Source: an uncultured virus (IMG/VR IMGVR_UViG_3300025018_000106) (taxonomy: Duplodnaviria > Heunggongvirae > Uroviricota > Caudoviricetes). From it: DNA of 64,000 nt. This document shows positions 16,309 through 64,000 of the stretch, one piece after another. A program made the translations under genes and the position numbers. The DNA lies in IMG/VR virus record IMGVR_UViG_3300025018_000106; one strand, given 5' to 3'. The notes below the pieces were generated by a model. That model saw only the letters and a list, made by a program, of their open reading frames with translations, made no database searches and was not told the origin of the DNA. How positions within the stretch are numbered: position 1 is the first letter of the stretch; every line of letters begins with the position of its first letter.

Positions 16309-16400
16309 TCTGGGAGGACCTGGATTTAGAAGAACAACTGGTCTGGTTATCTCGGGCAAGATACCTCATAGAAAGAGGTTACTTGCCCGGGCGTCGCTAA
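16305..16400 (+). CDS. Small ORF, 31 aa, possibly truncated by the endonuclease insertion
   Basis: ATGA overlap with gp47; MIWEDLDLEEQLVWLSRARYLIERGY. Confidence 0.45.
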   Translation: MIWEDLDLEEQLVWLSRARYLIERGYLPGRR

Positions 16401-17086
16401 GAGGATGTTTGAACGGCGCGGTAACCCTTATGGCTTCGGTTTTGACCCTTCGCAACCCTGAACATGCAGACATGGTTTAGACCTCTTTCCTTGCAAAATC
16501 TTCGCAGGTTGTGCAATCTAATCTCGCGACCTTCGGGGTCGTCGATAAACGACCACTCCGTAGCGTTCGCATCGCCTATCTTTCGACGGTGTTCTTCCGA
16601 AACGGTCTTGCCTTCGAAATTTTTGTTTCCCTTGAGTCTCTCTGAAATCTTCTTTCTGGTCTCTTTGGAAAACTTACGACCTTTCAAGGATTCGGCTCTC
16701 TTGCACACCGCATCAGGACTTTGTTTCTTACCCAACTTTGCTTCGCGCATCTTCTGCCTGGATTCTTCACTAGGTGAATATCCCGTAGAACCTTGTCCGC
16801 CTTCTGTTAGGTTATAACCAACCGGCATATCGTTGCTGTTGTGTTCTGCGATATATCTTGGTTCTAGAATATCATAGGCTTCGCGTTCGTCTTTCGTCTC
16901 CGCTATGACCTCTTGTTCAAAGGATTCCCAACCATACTTACGAATGGCTTTGGAAATCAGAAAATCATTTGAAGCATAACTGTGTTCTCGCATACGCTTT
17001 TTGAGGTTGTTAGTCACGCCTATATAAACTTTGCCGTTGACTTTGTTCGTCAAACGGTATATACTGTATGTAACTGAATCTTCCAT
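16397..17086 (-). CDS. GIY-YIG homing endonuclease with NUMOD3 repeats (Seg-like)
   Basis: SIY..TNKVNGKVYIG, GYNLTEGG, SEESRQKM/SKETRKKIS repeats; antisense between gp47 and gp46; own late promoter near 17121-17128. Confidence 0.93.
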   Translation of the reverse strand: MEDSVTYSIYRLTNKVNGKVYIGVTNNLKKRMREHSYASNDFLISKAIRKYGWESFEQEVIAETKDEREAYDILEPRYIAEHNSNDMPVGYNLTEGGQGSTGYSPSEESRQKMREAKLGKKQSPDAVCKRAESLKGRKFSKETRKKISERLKGNKNFEGKTVSEEHRRKIGDANATEWSFIDDPEGREIRLHNLRRFCKERGLNHVCMFRVAKGQNRSHKGYRAVQTSS

Positions 17087-17144: not shown

Positions 17145-18854
17145 GTGCTGCATTTTGAGCGTGTAAGGTGGAAAAATATGCTTTCCACTGGCAATAACTG
17201 GACTGAAATCCAATTAGACAAATCTCGCACAACTCTAATTATTGGTGAGAACGGTGCCGGTAAATCGACCATGCTGGATGCTATTTCGTTTGCTCTTTAC
17301 GGCAAACCTTTTAGACCTATACGAAAACCTCAGCTCATGAACAGCATCAACCAGAAGTCGCTTGAGGTCGAGGTGTTCTTTCGCTCGGGTAGTCGGTCAT
17401 ATAAGGTTCGCCGCGGCATCAAACCGAACATCTTTGAAGTCTGGCGCGACGGCGAACTTCTGAACCAAGACGCCGCGTCTCGCGACTATCAGGCATATCT
17501 GGAGGAGAACATCCTGAAATTGAACCACAAGTCATTCGGGCAAGTGGTTGTTCTGGGTTCTTCCACGTTCGTTCCGTTCATGCAATTGCCGGCCGCCGCA
17601 AGACGTTCCGTGATTGAGGACTTGCTTGACATTCAAATTTTCACAATCATGAATACGTTGCTGAAAGAACGTGTCTCCGAGAACAAGTCCGAGATTCAGG
17701 AAATCAAGTATCAGATTGACCTGTTCAAGAACAAGATCGAATCTGCCAAGTCGCATAACGAGTCCATTCGTCGCATGAAGGAGACCGAGGTCGGTCGCCT
17801 GAAAGAAAAGATGAAGGAACAACTAGACTACATCGAAGGCGAGAAAGCGGCAATCGACGTTCTCATGGACGAAGTGGAAGGTCTGGTTCAAAGTATCGCT
17901 GACAAGGCCGCCGTTCAAAAGAAACTGTCTGACCTACAAGAGGTTGAACGCGAACTTCGCGGTCGTCAGCGCACTCTACAGAAAGACATGCAATTCTTTG
18001 AAAGTCACGACAACTGCCCCACCTGCAAGCAGGACATCGAACACGACTTCAAGGAGGAAAAGGTCGCTAAGTCCAAGTCGAAGGTTGAAGAAATCGACAA
18101 GGCGCTGGGTCAACTTACCGAGAGGTTCGAAAAAGTCACGGTTCGCTTGTCTGAAATCGACGCGGTCGAGACTACTATCTCCGCCAAGAACCTTGAAATG
18201 AGCGAACACCGCGCGAACGTCAAACTCGCTATGACGACATGTAAGGGTATCAAAGATGAACTGGTGAACGCGGAGAAAGAGGTCGAAGCAATCGACACAA
18301 CCGAAATCCGCGATCTAGAGGACGAACTGGCCGCCTATCACAACAAGCAGAACCAACTATTTGATACGCGCGAAACCCTTGGCATAGTCAGCACACTGTT
18401 GAAAGACGGCGGCATCAAGACCAAGATCATCAAGCAGTATGTGCCTGTGATGAACAAGCTCATCAACAAGTATCTGGCTGCGATGGACTTCTTTGTGCAA
18501 TTCGAACTGGACGAGAATTTTAACGAGTCGATCAAGTCGCGTTTCCGCGATGAATTTTCTTACGGTTCGTTCTCGGAAGGCGAGAAGCTGCGGATCGACC
18601 TGGCCCTGTTGTTCACATGGCGCACTGTGTCGAAACTCCGCAACTCGGTGTCAACGAACCTGCTCATAATGGACGAGATTATGGACAGCTCACTGGACGC
18701 TGCTGGCACCGAGGAATTCCTCAAGATCATAAATGAGTTGACAAACGACTCGAATGTGTTTATTATCAGTCACAAAGGCGACCAACTATACGACAAGTTT
18801 GAAGAAGTGATCCGTTTCGAGAAAGTCAAGAACTTCTCGCGCATCGCTGCATAA
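17145..18854 (+). CDS. gp46: Recombination ATPase (Rad50-like)
   Basis: GENGAGKST, CPTC zinc hook, FSEGEK, MDE, ISHK. Confidence 0.97.
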   Translation: MLHFERVRWKNMLSTGNNWTEIQLDKSRTTLIIGENGAGKSTMLDAISFALYGKPFRPIRKPQLMNSINQKSLEVEVFFRSGSRSYKVRRGIKPNIFEVWRDGELLNQDAASRDYQAYLEENILKLNHKSFGQVVVLGSSTFVPFMQLPAAARRSVIEDLLDIQIFTIMNTLLKERVSENKSEIQEIKYQIDLFKNKIESAKSHNESIRRMKETEVGRLKEKMKEQLDYIEGEKAAIDVLMDEVEGLVQSIADKAAVQKKLSDLQEVERELRGRQRTLQKDMQFFESHDNCPTCKQDIEHDFKEEKVAKSKSKVEEIDKALGQLTERFEKVTVRLSEIDAVETTISAKNLEMSEHRANVKLAMTTCKGIKDELVNAEKEVEAIDTTEIRDLEDELAAYHNKQNQLFDTRETLGIVSTLLKDGGIKTKIIKQYVPVMNKLINKYLAAMDFFVQFELDENFNESIKSRFRDEFSYGSFSEGEKLRIDLALLFTWRTVSKLRNSVSTNLLIMDEIMDSSLDAAGTEEFLKIINELTNDSNVFIISHKGDQLYDKFEEVIRFEKVKNFSRIAA

Positions 18855-18863
18855 GAGGTGACC

Positions 18864-20177
18864 ATGGATATCGAAGAACAGTGGAAACTATTCCAAGAAC
18901 AATACCCGGTAGAGAATGTGCCGGTTGTGACAGACGAAGAATTGCGTGAAGCGCTCAACCGCGACCTTGGGCGAGTCTCGCAAATGACCGTTGGTGAATA
19001 CACTTTGTATCAGAAGTGGCTTGAGGTCAAGCAGAAATATCCGACCCGGGAGGTTCAGACGCTTTTCGGCACCGAGAAACAATTGGTCGACCTTGAACAA
19101 GAACGCATCTTGAAAGAGGTTCGCGCCAACATGTGGTGTCCGGAGAGTCCTGACGACTATCTGGAACTTCAACCGACAATGGTCTACACCGACGACTCGG
19201 GCACCGAGGCGGTGGCTGCTCTTGGTGGCACGACCGAGATTGAACGCAAGCGCACCAAAGACCTGCCTGAAAAGTGGAACGCACTTCGCACCTTTTCTTC
19301 GACCATGAAGAACAACTCCAACATCGGTCGCAGCCTGAACTTCTTTCTGGAAGACCAGGTGACGGGCAAGTATCTGGGTGTTATCTGTATCTCCAGTGAC
19401 TTTCTTGATCTGACGCCGCGTGACAACTGGATTGGTTGGGAGCGTGAGAAAAAGACGCAAGGTCACATGATTAACTACACGGCCATCGGTTCAACGATTG
19501 TGCCGACACAACCACTCGGCTACAACTATGTTGGTGGTAAACTGCTCGCGCTGTTCTGCCTGTCTGACACCGTGCAAAAACTCTGGAAGCAACAATACGG
19601 CGACGTTCTGGTTGGCGTTACAACGACTTCGCTCTATGGTAAGACCAAGGCGGGCGGTCTGTCTCAGTATGACAACCTGAAGCACTGGAAAAAGATGGGT
19701 TATTCATCGGGTTCTGTCTCATACGAAGCGACCCGAGAAACGCAATACATGATCCGCAACTGGTTGCACCGGAACCACACGCGCAAGTATTTTGAGTGGT
19801 ATGCTGCGAAGAAAGACACAGGTCAACCATACAAGCGCGATCACCGCAACCGTTCATACACGTTCACCTACAACAAACTCGGTATCGACAAGAACCTGAT
19901 TAGCTCCGCGCACCAGCGTGGCATCTACTTCTCGCCGTTGTATGACAACACGCGGGAGTTTCTACGCGGCGAAATCGCCGAAGTCGATCTGGTGAAATCG
20001 TTCGACACGAGTGAAGAATATCTTGCCAACTTGTGGAAAACAAAGTATGCAAGTAAGCGTATCAAGAGTCTGGTGAGTCAGTACCGAGTGAGTGACGAAG
20101 TGTTGTTCTACGATGATCTTATCTATATGTCGTGGGAAGAAGTGAAAGAGAAGTATCTAACACAGGTGGGACGATGA
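18864..20177 (+). CDS. DUF4338 (DruA-like) protein, predicted GNAT/Mom-like fold
   Basis: IVPTQPLGYNYVGGKLLA, TTTSLYG, SQYD, WKKMG; paralog at 27075. Confidence 0.7.
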   Translation: MDIEEQWKLFQEQYPVENVPVVTDEELREALNRDLGRVSQMTVGEYTLYQKWLEVKQKYPTREVQTLFGTEKQLVDLEQERILKEVRANMWCPESPDDYLELQPTMVYTDDSGTEAVAALGGTTEIERKRTKDLPEKWNALRTFSSTMKNNSNIGRSLNFFLEDQVTGKYLGVICISSDFLDLTPRDNWIGWEREKKTQGHMINYTAIGSTIVPTQPLGYNYVGGKLLALFCLSDTVQKLWKQQYGDVLVGVTTTSLYGKTKAGGLSQYDNLKHWKKMGYSSGSVSYEATRETQYMIRNWLHRNHTRKYFEWYAAKKDTGQPYKRDHRNRSYTFTYNKLGIDKNLISSAHQRGIYFSPLYDNTREFLRGEIAEVDLVKSFDTSEEYLANLWKTKYASKRIKSLVSQYRVSDEVLFYDDLIYMSWEEVKEKYLTQVGR

Positions 20178-20729
20178 TTACACTTTATGATGATGAAGTG
20201 ATTTACAAGAGTAAATCGGTTGAAGATTTTCTGGACATATTATATGCGAGAAGTGAACCGTGTTTTGAGTGTCTTGGAAAAAGGCCCGAGATACGTCATT
20301 TTGCCGGAAGGTCCGCACGCTCCCAAGGCTTTTAGAATTCTTGACAGCAAAGGTCAGAAGATCGTGTTGTCAGGAAGGAAAGGCGTCTATCTCTACTGGG
20401 CTAAAGGCGTTCCTCTTTATGTCGGAGAGAGCTCCACCTGCTTGCGCGATAGACTTGGATACTTTATCGCTTCCGTCTGGGACAAATCACATTCGAGTGA
20501 GAATCACCACGGCGGAAACGTATATCGTATGTTGCACGGCACCGGAAATTTTGACGATTTGCTCTATTCATATGTTGAAGTTGATGAAAAGAGGTTTGAC
20601 ACCAAATCACTCGAAGCTATGGCGGTGCAATATTTCAATCCTTCTTACAAACACCACCTAGAAGAATACAAGCGCGAAAAAATGGTCGAAGAATATGATG
20701 GGCATACCTTGGAGTCGTTTTTTTCTTGA
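20174..20729 (+). CDS. GIY-YIG-family nuclease, apparent +1 frameshift at T-run 20227-20230
   Basis: GVYLYW..PLYVGES..LRDRL; MITLYDDEV N-terminus joins if one T is removed. Confidence 0.6.
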
Positions 20730-20756
20730 CACGGTCGCCGGTTTCGTGTATAAATA
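20726..20756 (+). promoter_or_regulatory. Overlapping sigma70 and late promoter
   Basis: TTGACA-17 nt-TATAAATA, about 10 nt upstream of the tRNA-Gly-like gene. Confidence 0.8.
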
Positions 20757-20766
20757 GACTTTAGAT

Positions 20767-20833
20767 GCGGGGTGTTTAGACACAGCACCAGTCCCCCTGG
20801 TGTAAAGCGGTGCGATTCCGCTACCCCGCTCCA
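20767..20833 (+). tRNA. Non-canonical tRNA-Gly(CCC)-like RNA with reduced D-arm, 67 nt
   Basis: GCGGGGT/ACCCCGC acceptor, U73, CCA; CACCA-GTCCCCC-TGGTG anticodon arm; AGCGG-TGCGATT-CCGCT T-arm. Confidence 0.8.
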
Positions 20834-20855: not shown

Positions 20856-21494
20856 ATGTCACGACACGATTTGGTTATAGACTTCGAGACGATGGGCAGC
20901 CGCGCACTTGACTGTGCCGCCATTGACGCGTCCACATTCGTCTTTACCTGGGACAGGTTCCTGGATAATCCCTACTCATTCGAAGAAATCTTGGACGGCG
21001 CGATCCGCTACAAACTGAGCGTGAAAGATCAGGTTCAGAATTACGGGTTCAAGGTCGAACAAGACACACTTGACTTCTGGATGCGACAGGCACCCGAGGT
21101 GCAAGACAAGATCAAACCCCGAAAAGACGACCTCACGGTGAAAGAATTCACCGAAGCGATCATGCGCGACCTTTCAAACGGTCCGAAGATCGAATACTGG
21201 TGGTCGCGTAACAACACGTTTGATCCGACCGTCCTGTGGCGTCTTGTCTGGACGCAACACTCCAAGTATCGTATCAACGAATACTTGATGTTCTGGCGCG
21301 TCCGCGATGTAAAGACGTGGATCGACGCCAAGTTTGACTTTACAACTCCCAGCGGTTTCGTTCCCGTCGCGGACGAAGATTACTGGAAAAGAACCTTCCG
21401 AGAACATGATAGCACACATGATGTGGCTGCTGACGTTATGCGTTTGCAGGCCATTTGTCGTGCTGAAAATGATATGGAGCAAGTTAGAAAATGA
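20856..21494 (+). CDS. dexA: DEDDh 3'-5' exonuclease (DexA-like)
   Basis: IDFET, WSR..FD, FWRVRDVKT, HDSTHDVAAD. Confidence 0.88.
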   Translation: MSRHDLVIDFETMGSRALDCAAIDASTFVFTWDRFLDNPYSFEEILDGAIRYKLSVKDQVQNYGFKVEQDTLDFWMRQAPEVQDKIKPRKDDLTVKEFTEAIMRDLSNGPKIEYWWSRNNTFDPTVLWRLVWTQHSKYRINEYLMFWRVRDVKTWIDAKFDFTTPSGFVPVADEDYWKRTFREHDSTHDVAADVMRLQAICRAENDMEQVRK

Positions 21495-21988
21495 GAAAAT
21501 ACGGACAAACACCCGCTGAAATAACGGGCCAAGTTTTCGATTATGCCGCAAAAGCGAACGAAAGAGACTCTAAAACCAAGCATCCTGCTGCGAAGTCTGG
21601 CGCAATGCGCGCTGCGCTCGGTGTTCCCTATTTCAAGCAAGTGCCTCTTGAAGCTGTTGGTGCCGGCGCCGCAGCACTCGAATACGGCGCTCGCAAGTAT
21701 GACAACCGAAACTGGGAAAAGGGCCTGCCTTGGCAGCAGATGATTGACAGTCTCAAACGTCACGTTGACGACTTCGAAAGAGGTCATGACTATGACGACG
21801 GCGACGATGGTTCTGGTATGCACCAGGTCTGTATGATTATGGCATCCGCCATGATGCTTTCTGCTTCTGTCATTCGTGGTATTGGTGAAGATGATCGGCT
21901 GCCGCCTGTTGCAAAAGAAGCTCTGACGGCAAAAGAAGTTGGTCGTTGGATGAACGAGCAACTAAAACTGACTGAGGGCAGAGAATGA
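21491..21988 (+). CDS. dATP/dGTP diphosphohydrolase domain protein (DUF5664-like)
   Basis: YGARKY..RNWEKG, RH, D..SG.H pattern. Confidence 0.75.
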   Translation: MRKYGQTPAEITGQVFDYAAKANERDSKTKHPAAKSGAMRAALGVPYFKQVPLEAVGAGAAALEYGARKYDNRNWEKGLPWQQMIDSLKRHVDDFERGHDYDDGDDGSGMHQVCMIMASAMMLSASVIRGIGEDDRLPPVAKEALTAKEVGRWMNEQLKLTEGRE

Positions 21989-22911
21989 AATACGAATTCA
22001 ACATGGAGGAGTTGCGCAAAAAGAGCATCTTCCTCGCAACACCCATGTATGGCGGTCAGTGTGCCGGATACTATACGAAGTCCGTCGCAGACTTGACCAA
22101 AGTGTGCGCTCTCCACGGCATCGAACTGAAGCACTACTTCCTGTTCAATGAGTCGCTGATTACTCGTGCTCGCAACTACTGTGTGGACGAGTTTCTACGT
22201 TCGGACTGCACACATATGATGTTCATCGACTCGGACATTGGCTTCAATCCCGCTGATGTTCTGAAGCTTCTGGAAATCTGCGGGCCAGGTTACGATATCG
22301 TAACTGGTCCCTATCCGAAAAAGACCATCGCGTGGGAAAAGATCAAGAAAGCGGTTGACGCAGGATTCGCAAACGACAATCCTTTTGCTCTTGAACAGTT
22401 TGTCGGTGACTATGTGTTCAATCCTGTGCCTGGCACGACCGAATTCAGGATCAACGAACTGGTCGAAATTCAAGAGGGCGGCACGGGCTTCATGATGATC
22501 CATCGTGGTGCGTTCGAAAAGTATGCCGAGGCATACCCAGAACTTCGTTACCTGCCTGACCATTCTAGAACGGAACACTTCGACGGGTCAAGAGAAATCA
22601 CCGCATTCTTCGATTGTGTGATTGACCCGACGACCAAACGGTACCTGTCAGAAGATTATATGTTCAGTCAGTATGCCCGCAAGATCGGTCTGAAAATCTG
22701 GATGTGCCCGTGGATGCGTATGATCCATATCGGCACTCACGCATTTGGCGGTAGCCTCGCAGCACTTGCTGCGATTCAGGCTTCGCCTACGGCTTCTCGC
22801 GAGTCGAACCGCAAAAACTACTTGACACAGAAGCCAAATCTTGATATAGATGTAGGATCAACTCTGAACCGACAGCAGCGCCGTGCTGCAGCAGCAAAGA
22901 AAGGTAAATGA
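21985..22911 (+). CDS. GT-A fold glycosyltransferase-like protein
   Basis: ATPMYGG, ESLITRARN, FIDSDI (DxD), GTGFMMI, LSEDYMF, HIG. Confidence 0.8.
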   Translation: MKYEFNMEELRKKSIFLATPMYGGQCAGYYTKSVADLTKVCALHGIELKHYFLFNESLITRARNYCVDEFLRSDCTHMMFIDSDIGFNPADVLKLLEICGPGYDIVTGPYPKKTIAWEKIKKAVDAGFANDNPFALEQFVGDYVFNPVPGTTEFRINELVEIQEGGTGFMMIHRGAFEKYAEAYPELRYLPDHSRTEHFDGSREITAFFDCVIDPTTKRYLSEDYMFSQYARKIGLKIWMCPWMRMIHIGTHAFGGSLAALAAIQASPTASRESNRKNYLTQKPNLDIDVGSTLNRQQRRAAAAKKGK

Positions 22912-25472: not shown

Positions 25473-25861
25473 ATATCGTAGACAAATTGGTAGAAGTCCA
25501 ACTGCCGAGTGATGAAAGCTTTCTAAAGATCAAAGAAACGCTGACGCGTATCGGTATTTCCTCCAAGAAAGACAAGAAGTTGTATCAATCTTGCCACATT
25601 CTGCATAAGCGTGGTAAGTATTACATCGTGCATTTCAAGGAATTGTTCATGCTCGATGGAAAGGCAAGTGACTTCTCTACAGAAGATGAAGCAAGACGCA
25701 ATACGATTGTGAACCTGCTCGAAGAATGGGGTCTTGTCAAGACGGTCAATCCGGCACAAATTGAGGACCCAGTGGCACCACTTTCTCAGATCAAGATTTT
25801 GGCGTTCAAAGAAAAGGACGAGTGGGGACTGGTTGCCAAATACACCATCGGCAAAAAGTAA
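25469..25861 (+). CDS. regA: Translational repressor
   Basis: FLKIKETLTRIGI, LYQSCHILHKRG.YYIVHFKE. Confidence 0.97.
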   Translation: MNIVDKLVEVQLPSDESFLKIKETLTRIGISSKKDKKLYQSCHILHKRGKYYIVHFKELFMLDGKASDFSTEDEARRNTIVNLLEEWGLVKTVNPAQIEDPVAPLSQIKILAFKEKDEWGLVAKYTIGKK

Positions 25862-25872
25862 CAGTAGATATC

Positions 25873-26496
25873 ATGAAAAAATGGCTTGACGATGCAAAGA
25901 CCCGTATGCAACAGGTCTCTGAAAAAGGTGAAGTGATGATTCAGAGCGGCCGCGATACGGTCGTGAATCTGGCAGACCGGCGCGAAAAGCTGCGTGTCTA
26001 CAAACTCTATCCCGAAGCACATATGCCGACTTACGGCAGCCATTGGGCAGCATGTTTCGATCTTCACGCGTCTATCCGCGTTGGCGACACAATCAACACC
26101 TATACGCCGCAGAACAAGAAAACGACGACCTGCATTCTGGAGGACAAAGATGGGCCTACCTTTGTGGTATATCCTGGTCACCGCGCACTGGTACCAACAG
26201 GTCTGGTTTTCGACCTTGAGGAAGATCAATCCATGCGTGTCCACCCCCGGTCGGGACTCGCTGTAAAGAACGGCGTGATGCTCGCGAACTGCGAAGGCAT
26301 CATTGACGCCGACTACGTTCAGCAGACGTATATCACCGTGTTCAACACCTCGGACGTTCCTTTCGCCATTCGTGATGGCGACCGCCTCGCACAGGCAGAA
26401 ATCGTGCGCAGCTTCCAGGTTGCTTTCGAAGAAGTGACGGAAGAACCTGAACCGAAAACCAACCGCAAGGGTGGATTTGGTTCGACCGGCGTTTGA
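25873..26496 (+). CDS. dut: Trimeric dUTPase
   Basis: ACFDL, PRSGL, GIIDADY, GDRLAQ, RKGGFGSTG. Confidence 0.95.
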   Translation: MKKWLDDAKTRMQQVSEKGEVMIQSGRDTVVNLADRREKLRVYKLYPEAHMPTYGSHWAACFDLHASIRVGDTINTYTPQNKKTTTCILEDKDGPTFVVYPGHRALVPTGLVFDLEEDQSMRVHPRSGLAVKNGVMLANCEGIIDADYVQQTYITVFNTSDVPFAIRDGDRLAQAEIVRSFQVAFEEVTEEPEPKTNRKGGFGSTGV

Positions 26497-27074: not shown

Positions 27075-28193
27075 ATGATTCTGACTCATGAACAGGCTAT
27101 CTATGCCGCCAAGTTTTTTGAGGACTACTTCGAGTCTTTCGGTCAGATCGAAGATTACATGCGCAAGACAAAACTGGAACGCATCGAAGCAATGCCTCCG
27201 ATGCTGCCTTTTTTCTCATACGAGGACGACTTTTTTACCGAGTTTCACATGCACCCTGACGAAATGGATATTGAGGTTCGTCTTGCCGACAAACGTTTCT
27301 GGTCGCTTTTGGAAGTCACGTCCTCGCATATCAACCAATCATCGTCACCGGGTCGCACACTTGAAATCATGGTGTTCGAACGCAACGTCAACAAGGTTCT
27401 GGGATTCATCAAGGTCGGTTCGCCCGTTCTGAACCTGAGACCAAGAACCGAGTGGCTTGGTTCGCCTCTGGAGACAGGCAATCTAGAGGTCATGCAACGC
27501 TTCAACAACGTTGCTTGTATGGGCCATATCATCGTGCCTGCTCAACCATTCGGATACAACTATCTGGGTGGTAAACTTTTGGCTGCAATTTGTTGTAGTC
27601 ATGAAATAAAACGCCTATTCGACGCAAAATATGCGACGAATATCTGTCACTTCGAAACGACCTCACTCTACGGTTCGACCAAAGGTGCGTCTCAGTATGA
27701 CGGTATGAAACCATACCTGAGATACAAAGGTCTGACCGACAGCGACTTCGTTCCACATCTGACAGACAAGAAATTCCGCCAGATCAAGACATGGTGGGAA
27801 AAAGAGACTGACGTGCCGCTCAAAGTCACCTCTTCCTCGGTCAAAATGACCATGACGCGCGACATGATATCGAAGGTCGCTAAGGCACTCAAAGAACATG
27901 ACGCTGAACAACACCAACACTTCCGTAAAGTGGTCGAGAACGCGAAGGCCATGGTCGAAAAGAAGCGCACCTACATGTGTGACTACGGTTACGCCAACAC
28001 CCGCGAATACATCCTAGGCGAAACCGACACCTTGGTCAAGAAAGACAACTTCGACTCATACTCTTACAAGAGCGCCGTCCAATGGTGGAAGAAAAAGGCG
28101 GGCAAGAGATACAAAAGTCTGAAAAAAGAGAACAGACTGAGAACAGAACTGGAAATCTGGTCCAAAGATGCGGATATTGACATTATCCGCTGA
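27075..28193 (+). CDS. DUF4338-like protein, paralog 2 (predicted GNAT-like fold)
   Basis: IVPAQPFGYNYLGGKLLA, ETTSLYG, SQYDG; directly upstream of gp43. Confidence 0.7.
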   Translation: MILTHEQAIYAAKFFEDYFESFGQIEDYMRKTKLERIEAMPPMLPFFSYEDDFFTEFHMHPDEMDIEVRLADKRFWSLLEVTSSHINQSSSPGRTLEIMVFERNVNKVLGFIKVGSPVLNLRPRTEWLGSPLETGNLEVMQRFNNVACMGHIIVPAQPFGYNYLGGKLLAAICCSHEIKRLFDAKYATNICHFETTSLYGSTKGASQYDGMKPYLRYKGLTDSDFVPHLTDKKFRQIKTWWEKETDVPLKVTSSSVKMTMTRDMISKVAKALKEHDAEQHQHFRKVVENAKAMVEKKRTYMCDYGYANTREYILGETDTLVKKDNFDSYSYKSAVQWWKKKAGKRYKSLKKENRLRTELEIWSKDADIDIIR

Positions 28194-28229: not shown

Positions 28230-30740
28230 ATGTCATTCTATCTAAACGTTCGTCAATATGGCGACCGTATGCTTGTGCGTTCTTTCGAAGATGGGCGCCG
28301 CCAGCAATACGAAGTCAAGTATCGTCCTTACCTGTTTGTCCGTTCGCAGAACGGTTCAGGTGAGTATCGCACCATTCACGGCGATCCTGCGGAGAAGATC
28401 GAATTCGACAGCATCCGTGATGCGAAAGAATTTATCAAGAAGTATGGAGGAGTGTCCGGGTTCGAATTCTACGGCATGACCAACTTTGTCTATCCGTTCA
28501 TCAATGACCGCTTCCCAGGCGAAGTCCATTATGACCGAGACAAGATCAACGTGGTGTCGGTCGATATCGAAACCATGTCTGACGACGGTTTCCCCGATAT
28601 CATGACCGCGAACAAGGCACTGACCGCTATCGCAATTTCCGACGGCAAAGAGATTGTCTTTCTGTCCATCAAGGAATACAAGAAGCACCAAGACAACGTT
28701 CGCGTGATACGTTGCGCGGACGAGAAAGAGCTTATCGCGCGGTTCGTTGAAGTCTGGCGCGAAATGGACCCCGACATTGTGACGGGTTGGAACGTTGAAT
28801 TCTTCGACATGCCTTACCTTATCAACCGTATCAAGCGCGTCTCGGGCGAAGCCATGGCGAAACGTCTGTCACCTTGGAACCTCATTCGTGAAAACGTCCA
28901 GAAGCAACACGGCGAAGAGCAGCTGACCTACGATATCTTCGGTGTGGCCATCATGGACTACATGTTGGTTTACAAGAAATGGACCTTCACGACGCAAGAA
29001 TCTTACCGTCTTGACCACATCGCAAACGTGGAACTGGGCATGGGTAAAATTCACTATGAGGACGAATACGGGTCTCTGCACGGTCTGTATGAGCAGAATT
29101 TCCAACTCTACGCCGAATACAACATTCGAGACACCGAGATTATCAACCAGCTTGACGAAAAACTGAAGCTGATGGACCTTGCGCTCGCGCTGGCGTATGA
29201 CGCGAAACTCAACTACACTGACGCGTTCACTTCGGTTCGTATGTGGGACGTTATCAGTCACAACTATCTGATGGTCCACCGCAAGATCGTGGTGCCACAA
29301 TACAAGTATGATGGCAAGCCGTTCGAATTCCAAGGCGGTCACGTCAAAGAACCTTACACGGGCGAACATCACTGGGTCTGCTCATTCGACTTGAACAGTC
29401 TGTATCCGCACCTTATCATGCAATACAATATCTCGCCTGAATCTTTCGTCGGTCTGGACCCTCACATGGGTCAAGGCGTTGACGCAGCGCTTGATGGTTC
29501 GTATAACGAGATTCGGGACGACCTGATTGCGCAGAACGTCACGGTCACACCGAACGGTTGTGTCTGGTCGCGCGAAGAACAAGGGTTCCTGCCTGCACTC
29601 ATGGAAAAGATGTATCTTGACCGCAAGGCGTTCAAGGGCAAGATGCTTGACATGAAGCAGAAGTATGAGGACACCCACGACGAAACATACTCGAAAGAGG
29701 CGCTGCGTTTCGACATGATCCAGATGGCCAAGAAAATCCAATTGAACTGTGCGTATGGCGCTCTTGGCAATCCGTATTTCCGTTGGTTCAACTTCCGTTA
29801 CGCTGAGTCCGTCACTCTGGGCGGTCAGTTGTCGATTCGTTGGATCGAGCGCGAAATCAACAAATTCTTGAACAAGAAATTCAAGACCGATGGCTACGAC
29901 TATGTGATTGCGTCTGACACCGACTCTATCTACCTGCGTCTTGATAAGGCGGTCAAACTCGCATATGGCGACAAAGTGCCTGACGACGAAAAGGTGGTCA
30001 AGTATCTTGACAAGGTGTGTTCACAGTTGCTTGAGCCGTTCATCGAACAATCATACAACGAGCTCGGTGAATACGTTAACGCCTTCCAGCAAAAGATGGT
30101 CATGAAACGCGAAGCAATCGCGTCAAAGGGCATCTGGCGCGGCAAGAAAATGTATATCTTGAACGTGTATAACAACGAAGGCGTCCAATACGAAAAACCG
30201 AAGCTCAAGATCATGGGAATCGAAGCGGTTCGTTCGTCTACACCGTTCGTCTGCCGGGAGAAGATTAAGGAAGGTCTGAGCATCATCATGAACGGCACAG
30301 AGGACGAGTTGATTAAATTCGTCAAAGACTTCCGTGAGGAGTTTGCAACACTGCCGTTCGAACAGGTCGCGTTTCCCCGGTCGCTCAACGGTATGAATAA
30401 ATATCGTGACGCGGCGAATGGGTGGAGAAAGGGCACGCCAATTCACGTTCGCGGCGCATTCGTCTACAATGACATGATAAAGAAGCACAAACTTCAAAAC
30501 CGTCTGACACCTTTGCGCGATGGCGACAAGATTCGTTTCTCTTACCTAAAAATGCCGAATCTGACGCGCGAAAACGTGATTGCGTCCATGGACGAAATGC
30601 CGAAAGAGTTTGGTTTGGAAGATTACATCGACCGTGAAATGCAATTTGAAAAGTCTTTCGAAGGCGCCCTAAAGAGCATCACCGACGTTATCGGTTGGCA
30701 ACTCGAAAGAACAGCAAGTTTGGAGAGTTTCTTTGGCTAA
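28230..30740 (+). CDS. gp43: Family B DNA polymerase
   Basis: DIET exonuclease, FDLNSLYP, K...N..YG, DTDS. Confidence 0.98.
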   Translation: MSFYLNVRQYGDRMLVRSFEDGRRQQYEVKYRPYLFVRSQNGSGEYRTIHGDPAEKIEFDSIRDAKEFIKKYGGVSGFEFYGMTNFVYPFINDRFPGEVHYDRDKINVVSVDIETMSDDGFPDIMTANKALTAIAISDGKEIVFLSIKEYKKHQDNVRVIRCADEKELIARFVEVWREMDPDIVTGWNVEFFDMPYLINRIKRVSGEAMAKRLSPWNLIRENVQKQHGEEQLTYDIFGVAIMDYMLVYKKWTFTTQESYRLDHIANVELGMGKIHYEDEYGSLHGLYEQNFQLYAEYNIRDTEIINQLDEKLKLMDLALALAYDAKLNYTDAFTSVRMWDVISHNYLMVHRKIVVPQYKYDGKPFEFQGGHVKEPYTGEHHWVCSFDLNSLYPHLIMQYNISPESFVGLDPHMGQGVDAALDGSYNEIRDDLIAQNVTVTPNGCVWSREEQGFLPALMEKMYLDRKAFKGKMLDMKQKYEDTHDETYSKEALRFDMIQMAKKIQLNCAYGALGNPYFRWFNFRYAESVTLGGQLSIRWIEREINKFLNKKFKTDGYDYVIASDTDSIYLRLDKAVKLAYGDKVPDDEKVVKYLDKVCSQLLEPFIEQSYNELGEYVNAFQQKMVMKREAIASKGIWRGKKMYILNVYNNEGVQYEKPKLKIMGIEAVRSSTPFVCREKIKEGLSIIMNGTEDELIKFVKDFREEFATLPFEQVAFPRSLNGMNKYRDAANGWRKGTPIHVRGAFVYNDMIKKHKLQNRLTPLRDGDKIRFSYLKMPNLTRENVIASMDEMPKEFGLEDYIDREMQFEKSFEGALKSITDVIGWQLERTASLESFFG

Positions 30741-63989: not shown

Positions 63990-64000
63990 ATAAGAGACAC

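What the first reader, a model, noticed from the sequence alone, without database searches (positions are those of the whole stretch)
18864..20833. Dedicated non-proteinogenic tRNA-Gly near a GNAT-like DUF4338 gene: candidate tRNA-dependent DNA hypermodification system
Seen: a 67-nt RNA at 20767-20833, about 36 kb from the tRNA cluster, with its own TTGACA-17-TATAAATA promoter. It keeps the bacterial GlyRS identity elements (G1-C72, C2-G71, G3-C70, U73, C35, C36). It has only 12 nt where the D-arm should be (no G18G19), UGC instead of TΨC, and A49-U65 and C51-G63 in the T-stem. Established: staphylococcal tRNA-Gly species reserved for the GNAT-fold FemXAB enzymes also lose the D-loop GG and TΨC and bind EF-Tu weakly. 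Phage Mu Mom is a GNAT-fold adenine hypermodifier that, as I recall, was recently reported to use Gly-tRNA-Gly as donor. Seen: the upstream DUF4338-like protein has IVPxQPxGYNYxGGKLL...TTSLYG...SQY...WKKMG, spaced like GNAT motif A, strand 5 and the final motif. Inference: the phage makes a ribosome-excluded glycyl carrier for a DUF4338 enzyme that modifies DNA or another target.
Basis: partly seen in the sequence, partly recalled or inferred. Interest (0 to 1): 0.92.

Follow-up and report, generated by a model that had tools for sequence, protein, structure and literature searches.

The report
Phage D-armless glycine tRNA beside GNAT
An uncultured T4-like phage, like dozens of its relatives, encodes a stripped-down glycine-type tRNA that lacks one arm and sits just after an enzyme gene whose fold most resembles phage Mu's tRNA-dependent DNA modifier, which suggests a private glycine carrier for that enzyme rather than for making protein.

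Summary
Window 20767-20833 encodes a 67-nt RNA with an acceptor stem, a 12-nt linker in place of the D arm, an anticodon-like hairpin (CCC), a T-like arm, U73 and an encoded CCA. ARAGORN and Rfam's tRNA model both miss it.

It belongs to a family of 43 distinct sequences in uncultured viral contigs. Fourteen of 17 base pairs show compensatory change. G1-C72, C2-G71, G3-C70, G4-C69, U73 and CCA are almost invariant. Nineteen members have a central hairpin too short for a 7-nt anticodon loop.

A pattern scan blind to proteins gave 46 true members in 80 loci. Thirty-four of the 43 with usable upstream flank lie downstream of a DruA/DUF4338 gene on the same strand, 32 within 68 nt.

Both DUF4338 paralogs in the window fold as GNATs. 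Mu Mom (Gly-tRNA-dependent) is the top structural match for each, but only within the tie margin of ordinary GNATs, and there is no sequence-level link.

Charging, exclusion from the ribosome, the donor role and the target are all untested. The adjacency is largely inherited within one DruA clade. This scan had already noted an odd tRNA-Gly beside DUF4338 paralogs on other DNA (e1-5742174).

First reading: partly supported. Best model, confidence 0.45: a dedicated glycyl carrier RNA for a Mom-like transferase.

The parts
18864..20177 (+). DruA1: DUF4338/DruA-family GNAT-fold protein, 437 aa (ATG 18864; an in-frame GTG lies at 18858)
   Evidence: Pfam PF14236 E 2.2e-20. PADLOC DruA 1.1e-18. AF2 model pLDDT 93.7. 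GNAT fold with Mu Mom 8bv8_B on top: Z 9.8, rmsd 3.9, 169 of 202 residues aligned; Z 9.6 in the second look.
20220..20729 (+). ORF of 169 aa inserted between DruA1 and the RNA. No family match. Its tail TLESFFS resembles the polymerase tail SLESFFG. Probably not part of the system.
   Evidence: No Pfam, PADLOC or PHROG match. Only this ORF and gp43 end in LESFF[SG]. The relative L014 has a different 460-aa ORF in this slot. In 32 of 34 related loci the RNA follows DruA within 68 nt.
20726..20756 (+). Promoter-like site: TTGACA, 17 nt, TATAAATA. The second element also fits the T4 late-promoter word, which I recall rather than tested.
   Evidence: Sequence. 11 of 12 matches, with the -10 hexamer ending 12 nt before the RNA. 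9 of 44 distinct upstream regions of family members pass the same strict test, against 3 of 880 random positions.
20767..20833 (+). D-armless tRNA-Gly-like RNA, 67 nt with encoded CCA (type B: linker GUUUAGACACAG, T loop UGCGAUU, loop GUCCCCC)
   Evidence: Fold z -4.11. CM R2 84.3 bits. Family covariation: 14 of 17 pairs compensatory, 0 of 500 shuffles as high. Missed by ARAGORN and Rfam.
27075..28193 (+). DruA2: second DUF4338 paralog, 372 aa, directly upstream of the gp43 DNA polymerase gene (28230-30740)
   Evidence: PF14236 8.6e-13. phrog_19197 1.9e-139. AF2 pLDDT 88.0. Mom 8bv8_B on top: Z 9.9, rmsd 4.0, 169 of 202 aligned.

Best explanation
The 67-nt RNA is a phage-encoded glycine-acceptor RNA that does not decode. 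It derives from a phage tRNA-Gly by loss of the D arm, and in many relatives by shortening of the anticodon loop. It is transcribed from its own promoter. Inferred steps: its short leader is trimmed, the host GlyRS charges it through the retained acceptor elements, U73 and C35/C36, and the remodelled elbow keeps it off the ribosome. The neighbouring DruA/DUF4338 GNAT-fold enzyme, and possibly the paralog next to the polymerase gene, then uses the glycyl-RNA as its aminoacyl donor, as Mom and the Fem transferases use Gly-tRNA. The most likely acceptor is phage DNA at or behind the replication fork. Shown here: the RNA family, its structure and conserved positions, its linkage to DruA, and the GNAT fold. 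Inferred: charging, exclusion from translation, the donor role and the target.
For: 1. RNA family. A CM built from the window RNA finds D-armless relatives in 8 of 79 loci that were chosen only by DruA similarity. It also finds them in 46 of 80 loci from a DNA pattern scan of viral contigs that was blind to proteins. The same pattern in bacterial and archaeal genomes gives 0 of 80 loci at comparable score; the best are 26.1 and 23.9 bits, against 37 bits or more in viral loci.

2. Structure. On 43 distinct sequences 90.4% of cells pair, 14 of 17 pairs have compensatory changes, 0 of 500 shuffles reach this, and slid controls give 42-53%.

3. Glycine features under selection. G1-C72 43/43, C2-G71 42/43, G3-C70 43/43 and G4-C69 42/43, while the other stem pairs covary. 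Every listed member ends in UCCA. The hairpin loop holds CCC in 31 of 43 and UCC in 6. G1-C72, C2-G71 (the passage as held prints G70), U73, C35 and C36 are the GlyRS determinants named in PMC7826273 (passage).

4. Unfit for decoding. There is no D arm. Nineteen of 43 members have a central hairpin with a 4-nt loop; these are the 14-nt arms of the 63-nt class. Others have G33 or C37. Canonical tRNA-Gly genes sit beside the D-armless one in L115, L117, L122 and L151, so it is an extra paralog and not a replacement.

5. Linkage. Of 43 pattern-scan loci with at least 870 nt of upstream flank, 34 have a DruA-like ORF upstream on the same strand. Thirty-two of those have a gap of 6-68 nt. Other arrangements also keep them together: two RNA copies upstream of DruA (L005), and a canonical tRNA-Gly between DruA2-like and DruA1-like genes (L059, L061).

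6. Own transcription unit. Nine of 44 distinct upstream regions pass a strict two-hexamer promoter test, against 3 of 880 random positions. Hairpin-plus-T-run sequences follow many copies, judged by eye.

7. Enzyme. Both paralogs are confident GNAT folds, and Mom, which takes glycine from Gly-tRNA(Gly) (PMC13219725, abstract), ranks first of 48,161 chains for each: Z 9.8 and 9.9, with 169 of 202 residues aligned. So two lines of evidence, the fold and the identity of the neighbouring RNA, point separately to glycyl-tRNA.

8. DNA-centred context. The genes lie among gp46, gp45, gp44/62 and gp43. DUF4338 is described as a GNAT domain fused to DndF (PMC10853773, passage).
Against: 1. Mom's lead is within the tool's tie margin: 9.8 against 8.9, 9.9 against 9.2, and 9.6 against 9.1. 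Foldseek finds no PDB match at E<=0.001.

2. Profile-profile comparison of DruA with Mom is not significant, with probability 0.1-1.5%. Pfam assigns DruA only to PF14236.

3. Adjacency is clustered on the tree. One clade holds 20 of the 24 RNA-positive representatives, and the label needs only 5 changes. At 70% single linkage all cases within 100 nt fall into one cluster. Much of the linkage may therefore be inherited gene order.

4. Many DruA genes have no such RNA nearby. Fifty-six of 79 RNA-blind loci have no tRNA-like gene at all. A 94%-complete 164-kb record with DruA has no R2 match. Pelagiphages and cyanophages with DruA-like genes have none.

5. Nine loci with flank carry the RNA without an adjacent DruA. 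Of 5 whole contigs checked, 3 have no DruA at all, one of them 56 kb long.

6. Other tRNAs also abut DruA in some clades: tRNA-Ala 1 nt downstream in 3 loci and tRNA-Ser 6 nt downstream in 1.

7. There is no evidence of expression or charging. Metatranscriptome contigs do not cover the RNA.

8. It is unknown whether GlyRS would read C35/C36 in a 4-nt loop.
Confidence: 0.45

Rival explanations
1. The RNA is a real tRNA-Gly mimic that does not decode, but it works independently of DruA. It could be a decoy or sponge for a host factor that recognises tRNA-Gly or Gly-tRNA-Gly (a defence nuclease, a GNAT toxin of the TacT type, or GlyRS itself), or a regulator. On this view its place after DruA is inherited gene order.
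For: Adjacency is largely confined to one DruA clade. The RNA occurs without an adjacent DruA in 9 loci and sits inside tRNA clusters in L115, L117, L122 and L151. DruA occurs without the RNA in most loci and in cultured phages. The RNA has its own promoter and so needs no co-transcription with DruA.
Against: Thirty-two of 34 linked cases keep a gap of 68 nt or less while the DruA protein and the RNA stems both diverge. Different arrangements keep Gly-type RNAs next to DruA paralogs (L005, L059/L061). The closest solved fold to DruA uses exactly Gly-tRNA(Gly). No tRNA-Gly-targeting defence of the unknown host is in evidence.
Confidence: 0.25
2. DruA acts on the RNA rather than with it. The GNAT would acylate the RNA or its glycyl group with acetyl-CoA, either N-acetylating the aminoacyl end as TacT does, or acetylating a loop cytidine as TmcA/NAT10 does. 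The RNA would then be a substrate, product or regulator.
For: Foldseek and VIA lists include the tRNA-directed GNATs TmcA (2zpa_A), TacT (5fvj_A) and Kre33/NAT10. The last aligns over more residues than simple GNATs: 5jpq_i Z 8.9 with 225 aligned; 7mq8_NJ Z 8.0 with 189 aligned. The loop cytidines (CCC) are the most conserved loop feature. The Q-x-x-G...GGK stretch after strand 4 (residues 216-226) could still bind a pyrophosphate; this is by eye.
Against: These matches rank below Mom and within the general GNAT background, and 5jpq_i has rmsd 8.4. It is unclear what a phage would gain from making an RNA only to acetylate it. The strict conservation of the GlyRS acceptor elements, U73 and CCA argues that the aminoacyl end is what matters.
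Confidence: 0.12
3. The RNA is an unusual but working translational tRNA-Gly that reads GGG or GGN for phage genes.
For: It keeps glycine identity elements, CCC/UCC triplets and an encoded CCA, as all 10 canonical tRNAs of the window listed do. The window's tRNA cluster shows no tRNA-Gly. D-armless tRNAs do translate in some mitochondria (recalled).
Against: Nineteen of 43 members cannot form a 7-nt anticodon loop, and others carry G33 or C37. Four relatives keep a canonical tRNA-Gly next to it. Bacterial EF-Tu and ribosomes are not known to accept D-armless tRNAs (recalled). The window ends at 64000, so a canonical tRNA-Gly may lie beyond it.
Confidence: 0.08
4. The RNA is a decaying tRNA pseudogene, or merely a processing or termination signal (an RNase P site or 3'-end protector) for the DruA transcript.
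For: It lies at the 3' end of the DruA gene in most cases. tRNA finders reject it.
Against: Forty-three distinct sequences keep three helices through compensatory change, with invariant acceptor positions, U73 and CCA. The linker motif is conserved (GUCCGAGACAG or GUUUAGAACAG). Promoters lie between DruA and the RNA. Tandem copies of two subtypes occur. A pseudogene would not show this pattern.
Confidence: 0.05

Closest known systems
Phage Mu Mom with host Gly-tRNA(Gly) (Pfam PF25680; PDB 8bv8; PMC13219725)
   Same: A phage GNAT-fold enzyme. It is the best structural match for both DruA paralogs (Z 9.8 and 9.9, 169 of 202 residues aligned). Its co-substrate is glycyl-tRNA(Gly), the identity that the neighbouring RNA mimics.
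   Different: No detectable sequence relationship (hhalign probability 0.1-1.5%). DruA is larger, with an extra N-terminal domain (residues 1-96) and C-terminal helices. Mom uses the host's ordinary tRNA, and no dedicated RNA is reported for it; the paper has no occurrence of DruA or D-arm. DruA's substrate and product are unknown.
Staphylococcus aureus FmhB/FemA/FemB with non-proteogenic tRNA-Gly isoacceptors (PMC7826273)
   Same: The logic is the same: extra tRNA-Gly paralogs keep the GlyRS determinants but have altered D and T regions, interact poorly with EF-Tu and the ribosome, and feed a GNAT-related aminoacyl transferase. FemA appears among the fold matches (Z 7.9 and 8.5).
   Different: The staphylococcal species keep a full cloverleaf, whereas here the D arm is gone and the anticodon loop is often shortened. 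The paper says those tRNAs belong to a lineage found only in staphylococci, so this would be convergence. The acceptor there is a peptidoglycan precursor; here it is unknown, and a phage replication module suggests nucleic acid.
DruA of type I Druantia (Pfam PF14236 / DUF4338)
   Same: Sequence-family membership of both window proteins.
   Different: No DruB-E partners here. The neighbours are T4-type replication genes. The function of bacterial DruA is itself unknown, and I found no paper linking it to tRNA.
Canonical phage and bacterial tRNA-Gly (Rfam RF00005)
   Same: Acceptor stem, U73, CCA, a T-like arm with a 7-nt loop, and CCC/UCC in the central loop. The R2 model cross-hits canonical phage tRNA-Gly at 25-36 bits.
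   Different: No D arm and no G18G19. The T loop is UGCGAAU or UUUAACU rather than UUCGAAU. ARAGORN and RF00005 do not detect it.
tRNA-directed GNATs (TacT, TmcA/NAT10)
   Same: GNAT fold acting on tRNA; both appear in the fold lists.
   Different: They use acetyl-CoA and modify the tRNA itself. They rank below Mom, and nothing here shows CoA use.

Membership tests
Canonical tRNA (Rfam RF00005 / ARAGORN) | Cloverleaf with a D arm (D stem, G18G19) | tested here: not met
   A 12-nt unpaired linker replaces the D arm. The family-wide linker is 7-13 nt.
Canonical tRNA (Rfam RF00005 / ARAGORN) | Detected by the tRNA covariance model or ARAGORN | tested here: not met
   No ARAGORN call. No RF00005 match at E<=10 in the window or at gathering score for 7 relatives, while 13 canonical tRNAs in the same loci are found.
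Canonical tRNA (Rfam RF00005 / ARAGORN) | 7-bp acceptor stem, discriminator base, 3' CCA, T arm with a 7-nt loop | tested here: met
   The T-arm pairs are 95.3% paired across 43 sequences.
Glycine-specific tRNA (bacterial GlyRS substrate) | G1-C72, C2-G71, (G3-C70), U73, C35, C36 | tested here: met
   Present in the window RNA. Invariant or nearly so in 43 sequences. CCC or UCC in 37 of 43 loops. The determinant list is from PMC7826273; G3-C70 is recalled.
Glycine-specific tRNA (bacterial GlyRS substrate) | Actually aminoacylated with glycine | not testable with these tools
   Needs a charging assay.
Non-proteogenic tRNA-Gly (staphylococcal type) | Keeps GlyRS determinants but has altered D/T regions, with weak EF-Tu and ribosome use | tested here: inconclusive
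   The sequence features are met in a more extreme form. EF-Tu and ribosome behaviour are untested.
Non-proteogenic tRNA-Gly (staphylococcal type) | Member of the staphylococcal lineage, used by Fem transferases | tested here: not met
   Found only in viral contigs here. PMC7826273 says that lineage is present only in staphylococci. No FemAB-family match for the neighbouring proteins.
DruA / DUF4338 (Pfam PF14236) | Match above Pfam's gathering score | tested here: met
   73.4 and 48.5 bits against a cut-off of 27. PADLOC DruA models also match.
Type I Druantia defence system | DruA together with DruB, DruC, DruD and the DruE helicase | tested here: not met
   The neighbours are gp46-, gp45-, gp44-, gp62-, RegA- and gp43-type proteins. 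Four flanking ORFs have no PADLOC match. Only these neighbours were scanned, not the whole window.
Mom family (Pfam PF25680) | Sequence-profile membership | tested here: not met
   Pfam lists only PF14236 at E<=0.01. hhalign of the DruA profile against Mom and against a 30-sequence Mom profile gives probability 1.5% and 0.1%.
Mom family (Pfam PF25680) | Mom-like GNAT fold | tested here: inconclusive
   8bv8_B ranks first for both paralogs (Z 9.8 and 9.9; 169 of 202 aligned), but within 1 Z of ordinary GNATs.
Mom family (Pfam PF25680) | Catalytic residues R111, S124, R151; glycyl transfer to adenine N6 in dsDNA | not testable with these tools
   No residue-level structural alignment is available, and activity needs biochemistry.
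GNAT superfamily fold | Mixed beta sheet with the beta4-beta5 splay and flanking helices | tested here: met
   235 and 242 chains score Z>=5, and the top 50 rows are almost all GNATs. PMC10853773 calls DUF4338 a GNAT domain.

The most novel reading that the evidence does not exclude
DUF4338/DruA enzymes are aminoacyl-tRNA-dependent transferases that glycylate nucleic acid, as Mom does. One lineage of T4-like phages has evolved the first known virus-encoded non-proteinogenic tRNA: a minimal 63-70-nt glycyl carrier without a D arm. The ribosome cannot use it, and it feeds a DNA hypermodification coupled to the replisome without draining the translational Gly-tRNA pool. If so, DruA of Druantia and the DUF4338 modules reported on other mobile elements would also be tRNA-dependent.
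Probability: 0.3. Interest if true: 0.92.

Novelty: new variant of a known kind. Interest (0 to 1): 0.82.

Why it matters
If the model holds, this would be the second route, after Mom, by which a virus uses charged tRNA to modify something other than a nascent protein. It would also be the first case of a virus encoding its own dedicated carrier RNA that does not decode.

It would give a testable biochemical function to DUF4338/DruA. The literature I searched does not link this family to tRNA; the paper passages I read describe its fold or structural similarity, and PHROGs lists phrog_19197 as function unknown.

It defines an RNA family that current tRNA finders and Rfam miss, so these genes are absent from phage annotations.

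A 63-nt RNA that keeps only the acceptor end, a CCC hairpin and a T-like arm would also be a natural experiment on the minimal requirements of GlyRS and RNase P.

Even if the donor model fails, a conserved tRNA-Gly mimic unfit for translation, with its own promoter in many phages, still needs an explanation.

Tried and rejected
- **Short-word blastn of the RNA against the first 80 loci** found only one 15-nt match. MAFFT misaligned the four first relatives. I therefore used structure descriptors and covariance models.
- **Sequence search of DruA1 against PDB chains:** one row at E 0.68.
- **Foldseek against PDB:** nothing at E<=0.001.
- **hhalign of DruA against Mom:** three settings, all not significant. 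An apparent shared RGVY motif and a Q-x-F-[GA]-x4-G resemblance after strand 4 were seen by eye only, and I dropped both as evidence.
- **Expression:** the window occurs in aquifer and groundwater metagenome runs. Two metatranscriptome runs hold contigs only at 19424-19688 (inside DruA1) and 21776-21982, not over the RNA. They are contigs, so they say nothing about RNA ends, and ordinary libraries lose 67-nt RNAs. This is no evidence either way.
- **Cultured phages:**
  - R2 finds nothing in pelagiphages Mosig and HTVC008M.
  - It finds only 20-21-bit hits far from DruA in cyanophages S-PRM1 and S-CAM9.
  - blastn of two family members against 50,697 phage records gives no real match.
  - No isolate carrying the RNA was found.
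- **The window's own assembly is not held**. The nearest record, G001, is a near-identical 14.9-kb fragment and therefore not independent.
- **Bacterial and archaeal genomes:** the pattern matches are chance hits.
- **Not attempted:** a DruA-RNA complex prediction, because the complex tool takes proteins only. Its possible winged-helix nature is untested.
- **Supplements of PMC13219725** were not opened. They may hold Mom-homologue networks that bear on DUF4338.
Full report
**What is in the window.** The stretch lies in the replication module of an uncultured T4-like phage. The gene order is:
- a gp46-type SMC ATPase (17145-18854);
- DruA1 (18864-20177);
- a 169-aa ORF with no family match (20220-20729);
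- the RNA (20767-20833);
- an Rv2179c-like exonuclease;
- a dATP/dGTP diphosphohydrolase-like protein;
- a 308-aa protein (phrog_1574);
- gp45, gp44, gp62 and RegA;
- a dUTPase/dCTP-deaminase-like protein;
- Hsp20;
- DruA2 (27075-28193);
- the gp43 polymerase.

The DNA occurs in aquifer and groundwater metagenome runs.

**The RNA, checked.**
- a 7-bp acceptor stem;
- 12 unpaired nucleotides where the D arm should be;
- a 5-bp stem with loop GUCCCCC;
- a T-like arm with loop UGCGAUU;
- U73 and an encoded CCA.

The fold is well below shuffles (z -4.11; 0 of 200 shuffles fold as well). ARAGORN lists 17 tRNAs 36 kb downstream, none of them tRNA-Gly, and does not call this RNA. Rfam gives no tRNA match even at E<=10. 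All 10 canonical tRNAs of the window that my descriptor found also encode CCA and have 16-21-nt D regions.

TTGACA, 17 nt and TATAAATA end 10 nt before the RNA. The built-in promoter scanner skipped this site because the -10 hexamer ends in A.

**It is a family.**

RNA-blind set. A covariance model from the window RNA alone (R1) found relatives in loci that had been fetched only because they encode DruA homologues. A second model from five members (R2) found D-armless RNAs in 8 of these 79 loci: L005 (two copies), L014, L041, L042, L044, L046, L047 and L048. Six more loci hold ARAGORN-detectable tRNA-Gly(UCC); the one in L006 has a UGC T loop.

Protein-blind set. I scanned viral contigs with a DNA pattern for the conserved ends and linker. 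R2 confirms a D-armless RNA at 37 bits or more in 46 of the 80. The rest are chance matches, except L108, a 74-nt tRNA-like match at 29.1 bits. One locus, L166, is the same contig as L014.

Negative control. The best are 26.1 and 23.9 bits.

Rfam. At gathering score Rfam finds 13 canonical tRNAs in two of eight test loci and none of the seven D-armless RNAs tested.

**Structure and conserved positions.** These counts are on 43 distinct sequences. The window is represented by the near-identical L081, and the alignment is fitted to the model, which favours the structure.
- 90.4% of cells pair.
- 14 of 17 pairs show changes on both sides.
- No shuffle of 500 reaches any of the five measures.
- Slid controls pair at 42-53%.
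- The first four acceptor pairs are fixed: GC 43/43, CG 42/43, GC 43/43, GC 42/43. Pairs 5-7 and both hairpins covary. Pairs 6-67 and 7-66 are unpaired in 17 and 18 sequences.

Every member listed ends in UCCA. The linker is conserved, and two subtypes appear:
- Type A has linker GUCCGAGACAG and T loop UUUAACU.
- Type B has linker GUUUAGAACAG and T loop UGCGAAU. The window RNA is type B.

Five loci carry A and B in tandem: L140, L145, L159, L169 and L179.

The central hairpin keeps CCC (31 of 43) or UCC (6 of 43). Its predicted loop is 4 nt in 19 sequences and 5 nt in 18. In the 63-nt class the whole arm is 14 nt, too short for a 5-bp stem with a 7-nt loop. Several 7-nt-loop versions have G33 or C37.

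In L115, L117, L122 and L151 a canonical tRNA-Gly lies beside the D-armless one.

Together this argues for an extra glycine-type acceptor RNA that is not built for decoding. The GlyRS determinants G1-C72, C2-G71 (the passage as held prints G70), U73, C35 and C36 are as listed in PMC7826273 (passages read). G3-C70 is from memory.

**Linkage to DruA.**

Counts in the protein-blind set:
- 43 of the 46 loci have at least 870 nt upstream of the RNA.
- 34 of these have a DruA-like ORF on the same strand upstream (hmmsearch with a profile of alignment A7, E<1e-5).
- The gap from the stop codon to the RNA is 6-68 nt in 32, and 762 and 1501 nt in the other two.
- Three loci have too little flank: L137, L159 and L175.
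- Nine have flank but no adjacent DruA: L106, L115, L117, L122, L125, L139, L151, L161 and L172.
- Of five whole contigs checked, two have DruA 7-8 kb away and three have none, one of them 56 kb long.

Promoters and terminators. The spacers often hold promoters. Nine of 44 distinct upstream regions pass a strict two-hexamer test, against 3 of 880 random positions. Twenty-three of 44 have a -10 hexamer of at least 5/6 ending 5-14 nt upstream. By eye, a hairpin with a T run and the next gene's TTGACA follow many copies.

The window arrangement. In the window and in L014 an unrelated ORF is inserted between DruA and the RNA. It is a 169-aa ORF here and a 460-aa ORF there. The window arrangement is therefore a derived form of DruA-then-RNA.

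**How independent is the linkage?** Less than the raw counts suggest.
- I took 114 DruA-like ORFs of at least 330 aa; 4 of 118 hits were dropped as short, and L001 was left out as identical to the window. Single linkage at 80% identity gives 28 clusters. Eight have the RNA within 100 nt and 12 have it anywhere in the locus. At 70% identity all cases within 100 nt fall into one cluster.
- On a FastTree of 55 representatives, one clade with support 100 holds 22 rows, 20 of them with the RNA. The window's DruA1 sits in a second small group with L014 and L005 (RNA), L006 (tRNA-Gly) and three rows without. The label needs 5 changes, against 18.1 when shuffled.

So the adjacency is mainly inherited, with a few rearrangements that keep the two together:
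- RNA copies upstream in L005;
- a canonical tRNA-Gly 78 nt upstream of DruA1 and just after a DruA2-like gene in L059 and L061, and 78 nt upstream of DruA1 in L055.

In the RNA-blind set, the nearest tRNA-like gene is glycine-type in 14 loci, Ala in 7, Ser in 1 and Arg in 1, and there is none in 56. Within 100 nt the counts are 9 glycine-type, 3 Ala and 1 Ser.

DruA without the RNA is common. A 164-kb record rated 94% complete has no R2 match. The cultured pelagiphages and cyanophages tested have none.

**The enzymes.** DruA1 is modelled with pLDDT 93.7 from 68 sequences, and DruA2 with pLDDT 88.0 from 61.

| Search | Top match | Next best |
|---|---|---|
| DruA1, VIA against 48,161 chains | Mom 8bv8_B, Z 9.8, rmsd 3.9, 169 of 202 aligned | 8.9 |
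| DruA2, VIA against 48,161 chains | Mom 8bv8_B, Z 9.9, rmsd 4.0, 169 of 202 aligned | 9.2 |
| DruA1, second look at 995 Foldseek-ranked chains | Mom 8bv8_B, Z 9.6 | 9.1 |

- These leads are inside the tool's stated tie margin.
- FemA scores 7.9 and 8.5.
- Kre33/NAT10 chains align over more residues but at high rmsd.
- Foldseek alone gives only weak GNAT rows.
- In the viral library the significant matches are uncharacterised proteins, and a Mom entry ranks 13th at E 0.031.
- At sequence level there is no link to Mom.

**Literature.**
- PMC10853773 (one passage read) calls DUF4338 a GNAT domain fused to some DndF proteins.
- PMC13219725 (abstract and passages read) shows that Mom transfers glycine from Gly-tRNA(Gly) to adenine N6 in dsDNA. 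It does not mention DruA or a dedicated tRNA.
- Its 2023 preprint was seen only in the search listing.

**Reading.** Two separate lines point to glycyl-tRNA: the best fold match of the enzyme and the identity of the RNA next to it. This makes the donor model the best single explanation, but no step of the chemistry has been shown. The target is inferred only from context, namely the replication module and the DNA-centred settings of DUF4338. Rival readings, in order of weight, are:
1. an RNA that acts on its own as a decoy or regulator;
2. an RNA that is DruA's substrate;
3. an odd translational tRNA;
4. a relic or processing signal.

**Novelty.** I ran four searches:
- DUF4338: 4 papers.
- DruA/Druantia/GNAT.
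- D-armless/bacteriophage/tRNA-Gly: none of the 15 papers listed (of 120 that held two of the three terms) contains 'D-armless'.
- DruA plus tRNA: 5 papers, 4 listed.

None gave a paper that links DruA-family proteins to tRNA or describes D-armless tRNAs in phages. A Phold preprint notes DruA-like folds in six Synechococcus phages without proposing a function (two passages read).

This scan had already noted, on other DNA, two DUF4338 paralogs with an 'oddly shaped glycine tRNA', and stated that nothing yet tied them together (e1-5742174). The new part here is the family-wide definition of the RNA and its measured linkage to DruA.

Noticed in passing
window 20220-20729 (+) and 28230-30740 (+): The 169-aa ORF between DruA1 and the RNA ends in TLESFFS. 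The gp43 polymerase ends in SLESFFG. These are the only two ORFs of the window with this tail, which suggests a shared sliding-clamp-binding end peptide. By eye, the ORF also has a GIY-YIG-like stretch (GVYLYW...LYVGES). It has no Pfam, PADLOC or PHROG match.
   Followed up: partly
L014 5385-6767: In the closest relative that has the RNA, the slot between DruA and the RNA holds a different 460-aa ORF. This spot looks like an insertion hot spot, perhaps for mobile nuclease genes.
   Followed up: no
L140, L145, L159, L169, L179: Two different D-armless subtypes lie in tandem a few nucleotides apart after DruA: type A (linker GUCCGAGACAG, T loop UUUAACU) and type B (linker GUUUAGAACAG, T loop UGCGAAU). 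I did not test whether the two RNAs serve the two DruA paralogs.
   Followed up: no
L059 1454-3994; L061: A canonical tRNA-Gly(UCC) sits between a DruA2-like gene and a DruA1-like gene. This is a different arrangement that still keeps a glycine tRNA with the paralogs.
   Followed up: partly
L101 (G011:41001-41070) and L097 (G012:3385-3454, minus strand): A 70-nt tRNA-Gly(UCC)-like RNA that ARAGORN does not call lies about 11.6 kb downstream of DruA in two related contigs. L094 holds another aberrant one. Odd tRNA-Gly genes appear to be common in this phage group.
   Followed up: no
window 21491-21988, 21985-22911, 25822-26496: A dATP/dGTP diphosphohydrolase-like protein (PF18909), a 308-aa protein (phrog_1574, with a weak Anp1 glycosyltransferase-like hit) and a dUTPase/dCTP-deaminase-like protein lie between the two DruA genes. 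This context fits nucleotide-pool editing or DNA modification.
   Followed up: no
L068, L070, L071 (tRNA-Ala 1 nt after DruA); L054 (tRNA-Ser 6 nt after DruA): In another DruA clade a tRNA cluster (Ala, Ser, Asp) starts right after the DruA stop codon. The site downstream of DruA is therefore a tRNA-gene site in more than one lineage.
   Followed up: partly
L102 4024-5908 (Pelagibacter phage Mosig): In the pelagiphage the DUF4338 gene directly follows a putative peptide deformylase and 2OG-Fe(II) oxygenase genes, and precedes a MazG-like gene. No D-armless RNA was found there.
   Followed up: no
window 16397-17086 (-): A GIY-YIG plus NUMOD3 homing-endonuclease-like gene lies on the opposite strand just upstream of the gp46-like gene.
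   Followed up: no
window 19424-19688: Contigs from two metatranscriptome runs cover only this part of DruA1, and 21776-21982 in one of the two. This is a weak hint of transcription or of carried-over DNA.
   Followed up: partly
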